Shown here: positions 15,001-18,000 of the stretch, piece by piece
Position numbering within the stretch: position 1 is the first letter of the stretch
How the letters are laid out: each line of letters begins with the position of its first letter
Origin: Escherichia phage Evi
Length of the DNA stretch: 40,019 bases
Strand: one strand, 5' to 3'
Sequence record: LR597642
Program-made: the position numbers

Positions 15001-18000
15001 ATAAAGGTTTGTCAGGTACGTCAGCAAGCCAAACACCAGGCTACCCAATACACCTATTGCCACCCACTGGGATGGGGAGACTTTGTCCAGCAACTGCAGT
15101 AGCCAGTATCCCGTCCCCACCGCTGACGTGGTGTATGACACACCTGTTGTGATTTTTTCCATCTGGTACATACCCCGTCTCCCGTTATCCGGAAGCTGAC
15201 AACAATAAAAAGCCACCAGTTAATTCCTGATGGCCCTGATGCATAAACGTCATAATACCTGACTGTTATGATTGACAATAATGATAATGTTTATATAGAA
15301 AGGTTCCCGATATGTGTTACATATCATTTCTCCACGGGGAATATCCCCACGCCAGCGCAGACTCTTTTACCCGTTCTCTTCTGCGCTGGCTCTTTTTTTA
15401 TTATGCTGCTGCATTTACCTCTAGCACTAAGCTTTTTATCTCAACACAATACGTGGTACTTCGTGTAACCAATATCATAACGATTAATCGACATCGAATT
15501 TCTCCCGTGTACAGGAACAGAGTTAAAAAGCCGGAATCAAATCGCAGGATGAACATCTGCCAGTAACAGGGTGTAAAAAAAGGCCGCGCCATGCGCAGCC
15601 GGAAATAAAGGGATAACGATGATAGTTTGAGAAAAACAGAAATAACACTTTTGTTGCAGTGCATGGTGCCGGGTGCCTCCCGGTGAATTCAGCCGGTGTC
15701 ACTGAACCCGCGTCGGCTTGCCTATAACATAATAAATGCTACCTACACCAGTCGCCCCTCCGCACAGGGGGATTCACCATGCAGAAGTGTTTTTAATAAA
15801 CAGCAAACAAAAAAATCAAGCATTATGCAGGCTGTTTCTTTTTATCACCGGCCACAGCAATACCACAATGCCGCAGACCAGCACCCCATCCGCCAGCACC
15901 GACATGATTCTGCTGGTGAAATCCACCATCACCACCAGAAACAGCAGGAGTGCAGCCACAGCCAGGCGCAGTTTTACCGTCACAGGTGATTCTCCAGACG
16001 AAGACCCAGAACACCGGCAATCTCTTCCAGCACCTTGCGCTCTTCCGGCTCAATTTCGCCGTCTGCCTCCGCAATGGCCACCGCCACATCCAGCACATCT
16101 TCCGCTTCACGCGTATCGTGTTTCACATCCTCAATCTCGCGTAACGCGGCACGACGACCAATTTTAAAATTGGTATCCAGCTGACCGATAATAGTTGCGC
16201 TAATCGCATTAATTTCCGAGGTAAACGCAGACAACGCAGGCTGATTACGTAAGACCTGTTCGATCTTCGCTTTCTCGGATGCCTCGCATTCACCATCTGC
16301 ATAGGCCACCAGGTATGCAGCGTTAATCACCGCCTGTGCCAGATCGCGTTTCTCAAACTTTTTAATTTCCGCTGCCGCTCTGCGGGTTTTCTTTTTGAAG
16401 ATTCCAAACATCGTGACGTTCCTTTGGGTGGGTGAGCCAGCACTCAGGAATGATCAGCCCACAGAGACAGTCACACCGACCGTTCCCTATGGCTCCCCCC
16501 CCCCCTGAAAGGCTCTGTGGTTGATATGCGCCGGGCGTGGCGCAGATACAAAAAAGGCCCGCAAAAGCGAGCCGGGAAAATAAGTGTAGCGCGTTGTACT
16601 GGAGTCGAACCAGTGACCGATTGCTTAGAAGGCAATTGCTCTGTCCTGCTGAGCTAACAACGCAGAATACCGATAATGGACCACCATCGGGGACTCGAAC
16701 CTCGTACACTCAACTTAAAGGGTTGACGCTCTTTCCTGATGAGCTAGTGGCGGTTGGTGGCCCTTGCTGGATTTGAACCAGCGACCTGGCGATTATGAGT
16801 CGCTCGCTCTCACCACTGAGCTAAAGGGCCGGGCGGAGGATAATAACGTTACGAAATCAATGTTGCAAGCATTCAAAAATCACCTGGTTAAAAATCACCC
16901 TTACCTCCTCCACCAGCGCATTCACCATGTCTATCCGAGATAAGTGGCACAAAAAAACCCGCACGGGGGCGGGTTGTAAAAAATCTTTTAACGCCAGGCA
17001 TAAAACGCCCATCGTTAGGACAAATTTACCACAGATTCGGGAAAAATCAACAACACTATCGCGTTACCCTCTTCAACTGCCGCTCCGCCCATGACTCTTC
17101 AATGTCAAACCGAACCACCAGCGTATCGTAAAAACGCTTCACTGATTTTTTCCACGTATCAAGAGTGATAGCGCTCGTCACTTTGCATATGGCATTAAAC
17201 GCCTCTGTTGACGGCAATCTTTCATAGCCACGACCACCACAACGCTGGCAGTCTCTGATAACAGGCATACCACGTTTTACCGACTCTTCACGATGAATGG
17301 CGACACCACGCCCACGGCAATCCTTACAGGCGGTGGAGACCTCACCCTTTCCCCCGCATTCAGGACAGGCAACTTTTACCACTTCCCGGACTTTTTTCCA
17401 TTCTTCCCAGTAAGACGGATACACACCCTTTGTACACTTTGCCCATACCGGCGGTTTACCATCCGGATACTGAACCTTGTTTGTAAAAACCTCGCTTTCA
17501 ATAAATTTTTCCCCTCGGCAACAAGGGCATTGCTTTTTACTCGCTGCGCTGCGGGCATAATCCTCAAAAGCATACGAAGCCATAATGCGCATCACTGCCG
17601 GTTTTATTTCTGCCGGAAGCTTTCTTAACGCCGCCACGCGATCGCACTGACTTAATGCATAATCTGCCAGTAATTCTGTTGCCCGCGCCCTGTCATTCAT
17701 ACTAATGCCCATTTTCCCCAAGAACGCAGAAAACCCCATCTCAGCCCGGTTTTGTGTCATACCCTGCGCAGCCATCACATCAGTGATGCTCAGCGCATCT
17801 TTTGATGTCGAGGCGGACGCATCAGTCAGGTCTGGCGATTTCGGGGAATAGTATTTCGGTAAATCTTCCAGTCTCATTTTTGGACCTGCCCGTCATGCAT
17901 TATTTCGTAAATCTTCACGCCCAACCGACCACCAGGAACAGGCAGTCCGCGCACAATATTAATTTCATCAAACTGCTCGTCGTCGATAAGCAACCCCGCA

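What the first reader, a model, noticed from the sequence alone, without database searches (positions are those of the whole stretch)
16677..16753. Middle tRNA of the phage cluster has a non-canonical anticodon loop
The loop reads CCUUUAA, so position 33 is C rather than the near-universal U, and the acceptor and T stems each carry a mismatch. By standard numbering the anticodon is UUU (Lys), whereas the neighbours are Arg(UCU) and Ile2/Met(CAU), the rare-codon set I would expect in such clusters. It may be a degenerating tRNA, an altered-specificity tRNA, or a mis-drawn fold.
Basis: seen in the sequence. Interest (0 to 1): 0.4.

Follow-up and report, generated by a model that had tools for sequence, protein, structure and literature searches.

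The report
Decaying prophage tRNA with Lys anticodon
The middle tRNA of this E. coli prophage cluster really has the odd CCUUUAA anticodon loop, but it is most likely a slowly decaying relative of the phage arginine tRNA argN that switched to a lysine anticodon, so it is a minor curiosity and not a new kind of tRNA.

Summary
ARAGORN, the Rfam tRNA model and RefSeq annotation of an identical copy all draw the same cloverleaf at 16677-16753 (- strand). The loop is CCUUUAA (C33, anticodon UUU). There are C7·A66 and A51·C63 mismatches and a G3·U70 wobble. It scores 37.0 bits, against 72.5 and 68.1 for its neighbours.

The gene fills the argN slot of the lambdoid ileZ-argN-argO cluster, downstream of the antiterminator Q gene. 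It is 79% identical to argN (Arg-UCG) and 53% identical to host lysT. Compensatory changes at 7:66, 27:43 and 30:40 fix the loop register.

C33 and A51·C63 are family-wide: 125 of 126 sampled copies have C33. One relative (L010) is canonical, with U33, G51-C63 and 53.2 bits. About 798 of 5426 complete E. coli genomes carry the family. Only 279 have the intact dominant allele. 393 carry alleles with a D-stem deletion or U8C, which RefSeq leaves unannotated. The exact window allele occurs in 9 genomes and adds G66A and C70U.

Best reading: a weak or non-functional, decaying and probably recombinant allele. Not excluded: a tRNA-Lys that evades nucleases or modification enzymes. Interest is low to moderate.

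The parts
16677..16753 (-). Middle tRNA gene. It is an argN paralogue with anticodon UUU, C33, C7·A66, A51·C63, G3·U70, U73 and an encoded CCA.
   Evidence: ARAGORN. Rfam tRNA model, 37.0 bits. An identical copy is annotated tRNA-Lys in RefSeq NZ_CP027103.1.
16715..16721 (-). Anticodon loop CCUUUAA. C33 is the complement of base 16720. The anticodon UUU lies at 16717-16719.
   Evidence: Read. The register is fixed by compensatory changes in the flanking stem.
16755..16830 (-). ileZ-type tRNA-Ile2 (anticodon CAU), 1 nt upstream of the middle tRNA.
   Evidence: ARAGORN. Rfam 72.5 bits. RefSeq names the identical gene tRNA-Ile.
16589..16663 (-). argO-type tRNA-Arg (UCU), 13 nt downstream. In this window it is followed by CTA, not CCA.
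   Evidence: ARAGORN. Rfam 68.1 bits. 3' end compared across loci.
16840..16868 (-). Promoter-like site TTGCAA-17-TATTAT, ending 9 nt before the first tRNA. This is a consensus match only.
   Evidence: 1 site found, against 0.8 expected in shuffles, so it is not significant on its own.
16556..16573 (-). Terminator-like hairpin plus T-run, directly after the third tRNA.
16956..16975 (-). Terminator-like hairpin between the Q gene and the tRNA cluster, in the position of tR'.
   Evidence: The assignment to tR' is an inference from lambdoid gene order.
17056..17877 (-). Antitermination protein Q gene, upstream of the cluster. It defines the late-region context.
   Evidence: Pfam PF03589, E=6.9e-51. 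The same gene order is seen in RefSeq loci.

Best explanation
The element is a tRNA gene that descends from the phage arginine tRNA argN, the middle member of the lambdoid ileZ-argN-argO cluster between Q and the lysis genes. In one lineage its anticodon changed from UCG (Arg) to UUU (Lys), while the anticodon stem and the 7:66 pair were kept intact by compensatory changes. The E. coli branch of that lineage then fixed two damaging changes, U33 to C and G51 to A (giving A51·C63). Since then it has been drifting under weak or no selection.

The window copy is a rare, further-damaged allele. It has a G66A change that breaks 7:66 and a C70U change. Its 3' flank is that of an argN-type cluster, so it is probably a recombinant between a Lys-type 5' part and an Arg-type 3' part.

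It is probably still transcribed with its two healthy neighbours and processed. It is expected to be a poor decoder or a non-decoder for three reasons. C33 weakens the U-turn of the anticodon loop. The E. coli t6A enzymes fail on a U33C substrate. The cloverleaf has lost about 10 kcal/mol relative to the canonical relative.

Shown here: anatomy, homology, allele series and population frequencies. Inferred: the direction of change, the recombinant origin, and the loss of function.
For: Slot and homology:
- The gene order is Q, then ileZ, the middle tRNA and argO, then a TerB-like gene and lysis genes.
- The middle tRNA is 79% identical to argN of Stx2 phage PA30 and 53% identical to K-12 lysT.

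Past selection for structure:
- Double compensatory changes at 7:66 (UA in 17 alleles, CG in 13), 27:43 and 30:40. The window allele is the only one with 7:66 broken.

Polarity of change:
- argN alleles and the single canonical Lys relative L010 share U33 and G51. 125 of 126 Lys-type copies have C33 and nearly all keep A51·C63; one 5-copy allele has repaired it to A51-U63.

Graded decay:
- Rfam scores are 54.8 (argN), 53.2 (L010), 44.4 (dominant allele) and 37.0 (window). Three further alleles score below 29.
- Cloverleaf energies are -27.0, -22.3 and -17.0 kcal/mol for L010, the dominant allele and the window.

Relaxed constraint in populations:
- About 798 of 5426 complete E. coli genomes carry the family.
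- 279 have the exact dominant allele, which RefSeq annotates as tRNA-Lys.
- 222 have an allele with a 1-nt D-stem deletion, and 171 have an allele with U8C, C4U and C11U. Neither is annotated in the rows listed.
- 9 have the window allele, mostly poultry isolates.
- The whole middle slot is labile. 35 of 125 ileZ-selected loci have no callable middle tRNA because of an insertion, a deletion or an argN/argO fusion, and several argN alleles also carry mismatches.

Recombinant origin:
- The window has C7 (Lys-type) with A66 and the flank TCCATTATCGG (Arg-type).

Functional expectation:
- E. coli TsaBCDE did not modify a U33C tRNA (PMC8887486).
- U33 enforces the U-turn needed for ribosome binding (PMC13276492).
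- K-12 has at least five lysT-type genes in a single cluster. From my own knowledge AAA is the major Lys codon, so there is no codon-supply rationale.
Against: - The window copy still passes the Rfam threshold, and RefSeq calls an identical copy tRNA-Lys.
- All tertiary-interaction nucleotides are intact by reading (U8, A14, G18G19, U54U55C56, A58), as are A37, the 36-UAA-38 motif and an encoded CCA.
- The dominant C33 allele is identical in hundreds of genomes whose flanks are highly polymorphic. This could reflect selection and not only hitch-hiking with ileZ.
- One lineage (L141 type) repaired A51·C63 to A51-U63.
- C33 tRNAs can work in other systems. Eukaryotic initiator tRNAs carry C33 (PMC8887486), and from my own memory U33 substitutions in suppressor tRNAs retain activity.
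- No expression, charging or decoding data were available.
Confidence: 0.6

Rival explanations
1. The C33 Lys(UUU) family is a functional rescue tRNA. It supplies AAA/AAG decoding when host tRNA-Lys(UUU) is destroyed by anticodon-arm nucleases (PARIS AriB, PrrC, RloC). It escapes because its anticodon arm and D-loop differ from lysT, and because C33 prevents the t6A37 modification that PrrC needs.
For: - AriB cuts E. coli tRNA-Lys at U36AAUC|A41. The changes U39A, A41C and U16C protect it, and T5 tRNA-Lys rescues infection (PMC12409363, PMC11464382).
- The window tRNA reads U36AAGUU41 and has C16, against UAAUCA and U16 in lysT.
- That paper states that PrrC requires ct6A37. E. coli TsaBCDE fails on a U33C tRNA (PMC8887486).
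- Most family members sit next to a Thr(UGU) tRNA, which is the other prime AriB target and the P2-OLD target (PMC12445682).
- In 5 loci where the Lys-type copy is most decayed, the neighbouring Thr tRNA has a UUU anticodon.
- C33 is present in 125 of 126 copies.
Against: - The neighbouring Thr tRNA is 100% identical to host thrU, so it cannot be nuclease-resistant. The window cluster lacks it altogether.
- About half of the E. coli genomes that carry the family have alleles with a D-stem deletion or U8C. That is not expected for a selected counter-defence gene.
- The differences at positions 39-41 and 16 are inherited from the argN body and are not specific adaptations.
- From my own knowledge, lack of t6A37 is very damaging to decoding by tRNA-Lys(UUU).
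- The window allele has two extra acceptor-stem lesions.
Confidence: 0.13
2. The element is kept only as a tRNA-shaped processing module. With a 1-nt spacer to ileZ and a 13-nt spacer to argO, RNase P cleavage at its 5' end and 3' processing at its CCA end would release the two useful neighbours from the tricistronic transcript. Overall shape would then matter, but the anticodon loop would not.
For: - The spacers are 1 nt and 13 nt.
- In the heavily rearranged alleles (types C and D) the acceptor stem, the 3' CCA and part of the T arm are retained while the anticodon arm is destroyed or deleted.
- The family is conserved relative to its flanks.
- From my own knowledge (not tested here), E. coli polycistronic tRNA transcripts are separated by RNase P.
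Against: - Across alleles the T stem is the least well-paired helix (90.3%) and the anticodon stem the best (99.4%). That is the opposite of what this model predicts.
- Some loci lack the middle element, or have fused it to argO, and still keep ileZ.
- Exonucleases can mature 3' ends after any downstream cut.
Confidence: 0.1
3. The window allele is an altered-identity tRNA. Its G3·U70 pair makes it a substrate of alanyl-tRNA synthetase, so it would insert Ala (or a Lys/Ala mix) at AAA/AAG codons.
For: - G3·U70 is present in the window allele and in the D-stem-deletion allele that 222 genomes carry.
- From my own knowledge, G3·U70 is the main AlaRS determinant and confers Ala acceptance when moved into other tRNAs.
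Against: - C70U is a single transition in a lineage that is accumulating C-to-U changes that merely keep wobble pairs (C2U, C4U, C11U).
- The helix context (C1-G72, C2-G71, U73) differs from that of tRNA-Ala.
- The adjacent C7·A66 mismatch and C33 argue for a poor substrate and a poor decoder.
- The common U70 allele has a broken D stem.
Confidence: 0.03
4. The fold is mis-drawn, and the real tRNA has a canonical U33 loop in another register or on the other strand.
For: The thermodynamic minimum-energy fold of the bare sequence is not the cloverleaf.
Against: - ARAGORN, Infernal and PGAP agree on one register.
- Sliding the pairing partners by 1-3 columns drops pairing from 96% to 29-53%. Compensatory changes at 27:43 and 30:40 bracket the 7-nt loop.
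- The non-cloverleaf minimum-energy fold is also seen for the healthy argN, so it is not diagnostic.
Confidence: 0.01

Closest known systems
argN, the tRNA-Arg(UCG) middle gene of the ileZ-argN-argO cluster of Stx and other lambdoid phages (for example phage PA30, KP682383.1)
   Same: - Same slot: after ileZ, before argO, downstream of Q.
- 79% identity.
- Nearly identical acceptor 5' strand (6 of 7 bases, differing only at position 7: C here, U in argN) and a near-identical D arm.
- Unusual C1-G72 pair, U73 and an encoded CCA.
   Different: - The anticodon is UUU, not UCG.
- The loop is CCUUUAA, not CUUCGAA.
- The anticodon stem is UCAAC/GUUGA, not CCAGC/GCUGG (compensated).
- It has A51·C63, and in the window also C7·A66 and G3·U70.
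- It scores 37 bits against 54.8.
The dominant 'tRNA-Lys' allele of E. coli and Shigella lambdoid prophages, usually found in an Ile2-Lys-Thr(UGU)-Gly(UCC) cluster and annotated tRNA-Lys in RefSeq
   Same: 74 of 77 bases are identical. It has the same C33 loop and the same A51·C63 mismatch.
   Different: The window allele has G66A, C70U and one variable-loop change, and it is followed by argO instead of copies of thrU and glyT. It occurs in 9 genomes against 279.
Host tRNA-Lys(UUU), the lysT family of E. coli K-12
   Same: The anticodon is UUU, with the loop context C32 and U36-A37-A38. The loop differs only at position 33.
   Different: - 53% identity overall.
- The discriminator is U73, not A73.
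- The D-loop and the anticodon stem differ.
- It has C33.
Phage T5 tRNA-Lys(UUU), the rescue tRNA that neutralises PARIS (PMC11464382, PMC12409363)
   Same: It is a phage-borne tRNA with the host target's anticodon, and it differs from host tRNA-Lys at positions 39, 41 and 16.
   Different: T5 tRNA-Lys is shown to be functional and AriB-resistant. Here nothing is shown, the gene carries C33 and stem mismatches, and half of the population copies are further disabled.

Membership tests
Bacterial elongator tRNA (Rfam RF00005) | Covariance-model score at or above the gathering score (29 bits) over the full model | tested here: met
   37.0 bits over model positions 1-71, E=2.4e-4. This is far below the neighbours (72.5 and 68.1).
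Bacterial elongator tRNA (Rfam RF00005) | Cloverleaf with 7/4/5/5-bp stems, all pairs standard | tested here: not met
   C7·A66 and A51·C63 are non-standard pairs. The other 19 pairs are standard.
Bacterial elongator tRNA (Rfam RF00005) | U33 preceding the anticodon in a 7-nt loop with a purine at position 37 | tested here: not met
   The loop is 7 nt with A37, but position 33 is C.
Bacterial elongator tRNA (Rfam RF00005) | Conserved tertiary nucleotides U8, A14, G18G19, U54U55C56 and A58, plus a 3' CCA | tested here: met
   All are present in the sequence as aligned, and CCA is encoded at 16677-16679.
ileZ-argN-argO prophage tRNA cluster (middle member, argN) | Position between ileZ-type tRNA-Ile2(CAU) and argO-type tRNA-Arg(UCU), downstream of the Q antiterminator | tested here: met
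ileZ-argN-argO prophage tRNA cluster (middle member, argN) | Sequence homology to argN | tested here: met
   79% identity over 77 nt with no gaps, with compensatory stem changes.
ileZ-argN-argO prophage tRNA cluster (middle member, argN) | Arginine anticodon (UCG) with C35 | tested here: not met
   The anticodon is UUU. It is therefore a paralogue of argN and not argN itself.
tRNA-Lys(UUU) isoacceptor | Anticodon U34 U35 U36 | tested here: met
tRNA-Lys(UUU) isoacceptor | Discriminator A73 (a LysRS identity element, from my own knowledge) | tested here: not met
   Position 73 is U (the complement of window base 16680).
tRNA-Lys(UUU) isoacceptor | Aminoacylation with lysine | not testable with these tools
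   This needs a LysRS charging assay, or acid-gel northern blots or tRNA-seq.
tRNA-Lys(UUU) isoacceptor | Substrate for t6A37 (36-UAA-38, plus U33 for the E. coli enzyme) | tested here: inconclusive
   36-UAA-38 is present. The C33 equivalent abolished modification of E. coli tRNA-Met(i) by TsaBCDE (PMC8887486), but this tRNA itself has not been tested.
Nuclease-resistant phage rescue tRNA (T5 tRNA-Lys type) | Same anticodon as the targeted host tRNA, with altered nuclease determinants (U16, U39, C40|A41 for AriB) | tested here: met
   The anticodon is UUU, with C16, G39, U40 and U41, against U16, U39, C40 and A41 in lysT (determinants from PMC12409363).
Nuclease-resistant phage rescue tRNA (T5 tRNA-Lys type) | Decodes and rescues infection or toxicity when the host tRNA is cleaved | not testable with these tools
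   This needs plaque or toxicity rescue assays. The high frequency of disabled alleles in populations argues against it.
tRNA pseudogene | Loss of the detectable tRNA signature (below model threshold, or not called) | tested here: not met
   The window allele is still called by ARAGORN, Infernal and PGAP. Sister alleles (L002, L118 and L141 types) fall below 29 bits.
tRNA pseudogene | Population pattern of relaxed constraint (frequent disabling variants) | tested here: met
   393 of about 798 carrier genomes have the D-stem-deletion or U8C alleles. 45 of 126 IMG/VR copies carry an extra disruptive change.

The most novel reading that the evidence does not exclude
The C33 Lys(UUU) tRNA family of E. 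coli lambdoid prophages, including this allele, is a deliberately 'unmodifiable' rescue tRNA. C33 blocks t6A37 formation and so blocks recognition by PrrC-type anticodon nucleases. The argN-derived anticodon stem and D-loop (G39 U40 U41, C16) escape PARIS AriB. The prophage would therefore keep translating lysine codons during induction in cells whose own tRNA-Lys is being destroyed. A more exotic sub-variant is that the G3·U70 window allele is charged with alanine.
Probability: 0.1. Interest if true: 0.7.

Novelty: new member of a known kind. Interest (0 to 1): 0.3.

Why it matters
If the best reading is right, the finding matters mainly for annotation. A gene that RefSeq labels 'tRNA-Lys' in hundreds of E. 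coli genomes is an argN paralogue with a defective anticodon loop. Counts of prophage tRNA-Lys genes should not be taken as evidence for codon supplementation or counter-defence.

It is also a clear small example of two processes: a tRNA changing anticodon class (Arg to Lys) with compensated stems, and a tRNA then decaying while trapped between two selected neighbours.

If the minority reading is right, temperate lambdoid phages would join T5-like phages in carrying tRNA-Lys variants that defeat tRNA-targeting immunity. C33 would then be a new way to evade a modification-dependent nuclease.

Tried and rejected
- Literature. Searches for ileZ/argN/argO and for prophage tRNA-Lys in Stx phages found nothing usable in the held library. 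The original 933W descriptions are not held. Statements about them rest on annotation in GenBank records and on my memory.
- Thermodynamic folding. It was not diagnostic. The window sequence prefers a rod-like fold (z = -0.77), but the healthy argN does too. I used cloverleaf energies only as a relative measure.
- Flank versus tRNA diversity as a test of selection. In a 97-locus alignment the flanks are far more polymorphic than all four tRNAs, including the Lys-type one. Phage mosaicism at the block boundaries confounds this, so I did not count it as evidence for selection. Counts of segregating sites are similar for the Lys-type and Thr tRNAs, roughly 0.2 per nt for each by my own reading.
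- A coordinated anti-PARIS/anti-OLD Lys+Thr cassette. This idea is weakened because the prophage Thr tRNA is identical to host thrU and the Gly tRNA differs from glyT by 2 nt. They are captured host genes, not resistant variants.
- Canonical U33 relatives. A scan for them found only one locus, L010.
- Species range. A scan of one genome per species found the motif only in the E. coli and Shigella flexneri representatives, plus one chance match in a Chloroflexia MAG that is not a tRNA.
- Stem-preserving versus stem-breaking polymorphisms within the Lys-type family. The counts are about 5-6 against 5-7 events, which matches neutral expectation. The numbers are too small for a formal test.
- Protein-search, structure-prediction and metagenome tools were not used, because the feature is an RNA gene.
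Full report
**1. Checking the observation.**

ARAGORN finds three adjacent tRNA genes on the minus strand:
- tRNA-Met/Ile2(cat) at 16755-16830
- tRNA-Lys(ttt) at 16677-16753
- tRNA-Arg(tct) at 16589-16663

The Rfam tRNA covariance model hits all three over its full length. The scores are 72.5, 37.0 and 68.1 bits against a gathering score of 29.

In RNA sense the middle gene reads CCGCCACUAGCUCAUCAGGAAAGAGCGUCAACCCUUUAAGUUGAGUGUACGAGGUUCGAGUCCCCGAUGGUGGUCCA. Its features are:
- The anticodon stem is UCAAC/GUUGA. The 7-nt loop is CCUUUAA, so position 33 is C and the anticodon is UUU.
- The model flags exactly two non-standard pairs, C7·A66 and A51·C63.
- 3:70 is a G·U wobble, the discriminator is U73, and CCA is encoded.

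**2. Is the register right?**

Yes. I collected alleles of this slot from IMG/VR contigs and RefSeq genomes and counted pairs for the standard cloverleaf on 31 distinct 77-nt alleles.
- 96.2% of cells pair, against 29-53% when the 3' partners are slid by 1-3 columns.
- Five pairs show changes on both sides.
- Two of these lie in the anticodon stem: 27:43 is C:G or U:A, and 30:40 is G:C or A:U. Another is 7:66, which is U:A or C:G.

These changes bracket the loop, so CCUUUAA is the real loop. The thermodynamic minimum-energy fold is not a cloverleaf. That is also true of the healthy homologue argN, so it says nothing.

**3. What the gene is.**

The window is a lambdoid prophage late region. On the minus strand the order is:
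- DUF968, RusA and antiterminator Q genes (17056-17877)
- a terminator-like hairpin
- a promoter-like site
- the three tRNAs
- a second terminator-like hairpin
- a TerB-like gene, a DUF3927 gene and the STnc100 sRNA
- later, the lysozyme and Rz genes

The 301-nt tRNA block matches 3061 of 5426 complete E. coli genomes. It also matches Stx2 phages, where it precedes stxAB and is annotated tRNA-Ile, tRNA-Arg, tRNA-Arg. This is the ileZ-argN-argO cluster.

In Stx2 phage PA30 the middle gene is Arg(UCG) with loop CUUCGAA. The window gene is 79% identical to it without gaps. It shares the odd C1-G72 start, U73, the acceptor 5' strand except position 7, and a near-identical D arm. It is only 53% identical to host lysT. 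It is therefore an argN paralogue that carries a lysine anticodon, not a captured host tRNA-Lys.

**4. The family and its history.**

Among 125 loci selected only by the 3' end of ileZ, the middle slot holds the following:
- argN (UCG): about 66 loci.
- The Lys-type gene: about 22 loci.
- No callable tRNA: 35 loci. These carry an allele with an insertion in place of the anticodon arm, deletion remnants, or an argN/argO fusion.

A second scan for the Lys-type anticodon arm gave 126 homologous copies.
- 125 have the CCUUUAA loop, and nearly all keep A51·C63 (one 5-copy allele, L141 type, has repaired it to A51-U63).
- The exception, L010, has CUUUUAU (U33), a perfect T stem, a compensated 4:69 pair, and 53.2 bits.

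U33 and G51 are shared by argN and L010. C33 and A51 are therefore derived in the E. coli branch.

The dominant allele accounts for about 69 of the 126 copies. It has a perfect acceptor stem and scores 44.4 bits. It usually sits in an Ile2-Lys-Thr(UGU)-Gly(UCC) cluster. The Thr gene in that cluster is identical to host thrU, and the Gly gene differs from glyT by 2 nt.

**5. The window allele.**

It differs from the dominant allele at three positions: G66A (creating C7·A66), C70U (creating G3·U70) and one variable-loop base. It is followed by the argN-type flank TCCATTATCGG and argO, not by the Thr gene.
- C7 is the Lys-type state and A66 is the Arg-type state.
- The window is the only one of the 31 alleles in which 7:66 is broken.

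The simplest account is recombination between a Lys-type and an Arg-type cluster inside the shared T-arm sequence, followed by a point change. This is an inference.

The allele is rare. Nine of 5426 genomes carry it, mostly poultry isolates. Its cloverleaf is worth -17.0 kcal/mol, against -22.3 for the dominant allele and -27.0 for L010.

**6. Selection or decay?**

About 798 of 5426 complete E. coli genomes carry a Lys-type copy. The main alleles are:

| Allele | Genomes with exact match | RefSeq annotation |
|---|---|---|
| Dominant, intact | 279 | tRNA-Lys |
| 1-nt D-stem deletion plus U70 | 222 | none in rows listed |
| U8C, C4U, C11U | 171 | none in rows listed |
| Window allele | 9 | tRNA-Lys |

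- Alleles of the two unannotated types score below the Rfam threshold.
- About half of all carriers therefore have a copy that is no longer a recognisable tRNA.
- ileZ and argO are almost invariant in the same loci.
- Within the family, stem polymorphisms split roughly evenly between wobble-preserving C-to-U changes and pair-breaking changes. That is what neutral mutation predicts.

Against pure decay:
- The dominant allele is identical across many prophages with very different flanks.
- One lineage repaired A51·C63 to A-U.

Hitch-hiking between two selected tRNAs that lie 1 nt and 3-13 nt away can explain the first point.

**7. Expected function.**

- U33 enforces the anticodon U-turn needed for ribosome binding (PMC13276492).
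- The E. coli t6A enzymes did not modify a U33C version of tRNA-Met(i) (PMC8887486).
- From my own knowledge, tRNA-Lys(UUU) depends unusually strongly on t6A37 and on U34 modification for decoding. LysRS uses A73, which is U here.
- The host has many lysT-type genes. From my own knowledge AAA is the common Lys codon, so the rare-codon logic that applies to ileZ and argO does not apply here.

I therefore expect a weak decoder or a non-decoder. This is inference. No expression or charging data exist in what I could search.

**8. The main rival: a nuclease-evading rescue tRNA.**

Phage tRNAs can replace host tRNAs that defence nucleases destroy.
- PARIS AriB cuts E. coli tRNA-Lys(UUU) at U36AAUC|A41. 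It also cuts tRNA-Thr(UGU).
- The changes U39A, A41C and U16C protect the tRNA, and T5 tRNAs rescue infection (PMC11464382, PMC12409363).
- P2 OLD cuts tRNA-Thr(UGU) (PMC12445682).
- That literature states that PrrC needs ct6A37 (PMC12409363).

The window tRNA has G39 U40 U41 and C16, and C33 may prevent t6A formation. It could therefore escape these enzymes. I keep this as the main rival and as the novel case, but several points weigh against it:
- The 'resistant' positions are simply the argN body.
- The associated Thr tRNA is identical to the host gene.
- Half of the population copies are disabled.
- The window allele carries extra lesions.

**9. Other rivals.**

- A tRNA-shaped processing spacer. 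This is not favoured, because the T stem is the least conserved helix.
- Ala mischarging through G3·U70. This is a single transition in a lineage that is accumulating C-to-U changes.

**10. Comparison with known kinds, and verdict.**

The element works like, and descends from, the prophage argN tRNA.
- It fails the defining Arg anticodon of argN.
- It fails A73 and body similarity for tRNA-Lys.
- It fails U33 and full stem pairing for a canonical elongator tRNA.
- It still passes the general tRNA model.

It is best filed as an anticodon-shifted, decaying member of the ileZ-argN-argO family. Databases already annotate it (as tRNA-Lys), but I found no published description of it in the searchable literature.

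Confidence in the decay reading is 0.6. Interest is 0.3.

Noticed in passing
window 16587-16589 (- strand), directly 3' of the Arg(UCU) tRNA: The third tRNA (argO type) is followed by CTA, not CCA. The nearest RefSeq relative RM14723 and the Stx2 phage PA30 copy encode CCA. Of the copies sampled, about 65 have CCA and 14 have CTA. ARAGORN accordingly reports a 75-nt gene here.
   Followed up: partly
window 16495-16505: There is an 11-base C run (G11 on the gene strand) between the terminator after the tRNA cluster and the start of the TerB-like gene (15980-16411, -). It is a possible slippage-prone tract. One related locus (L177) has a much shorter run, about half the length, in the same context.
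   Followed up: partly
L015, L058, L008, L055 and others (about 29 of 125 ileZ-selected loci), just after ileZ: This is a common allele of the middle slot. The argN acceptor stem, D arm and CCA are kept. The anticodon arm is replaced by a longer unrelated stretch (…GAGCAGACGACACGATAACAGGGTTGTTGGTGCGGGGGCGGGTCCCCG…), and the T-loop has lost UUC. Neither ARAGORN nor Rfam calls it.
   Followed up: partly
L009 7349-7499, and about 94 other loci: Most Lys-type copies sit in an Ile2-Lys-Thr(UGU)-Gly(UCC) cluster. Its Thr gene is 100% identical to host thrU and its Gly gene differs from glyT by 2 nt. This looks like capture of the host thrU-tyrU-glyT operon with tyrU lost.
   Followed up: partly
L141, L158, L172, L176, L202 (third tRNA of the cluster): In five loci the thrU-like gene has anticodon UUU (G35U, plus A26G). 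The neighbouring Lys-type gene there is the most altered allele (U8C, C63U repairing 51:63, U73G). This is either coincidence or replacement of a UUU-reading function.
   Followed up: no
L023 (3 loci), after ileZ: A single chimeric tRNA has the 5' half of argN and the 3' half of argO, joined at the shared CCUUCUAAGC anticodon-loop sequence. It is evidently a deletion by recombination between the two Arg tRNAs.
   Followed up: no
window 15625-15811 (-), 19908-20082 (-), 27113-27164 (+): There are Rfam hits to the STnc100 sRNA (119.9 bits; the 3' hairpin is missing from the alignment), the sok antitoxin RNA of a hok/sok module (113.5 bits), and DicF (76.4 bits).
   Followed up: no
L010 4009-4160: This is the only locus with a canonical U33 Lys(UUU) relative. 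Its ileZ gene also differs, by a compensated 31:39 change (A-U to G-C). The upstream DNA methylase gene is 89% identical to that of Stx2 phages. The host is unknown.
   Followed up: partly
several argN (Arg-UCG) alleles, e.g. L012, L026, L006: argN itself is often damaged. Examples are alleles with A52·C62 and A6·A67 mismatches, and T-loop changes (UUCGGGU, CUCGGGU). The lability therefore belongs to the middle slot as a whole and not only to the Lys-type lineage.
   Followed up: partly
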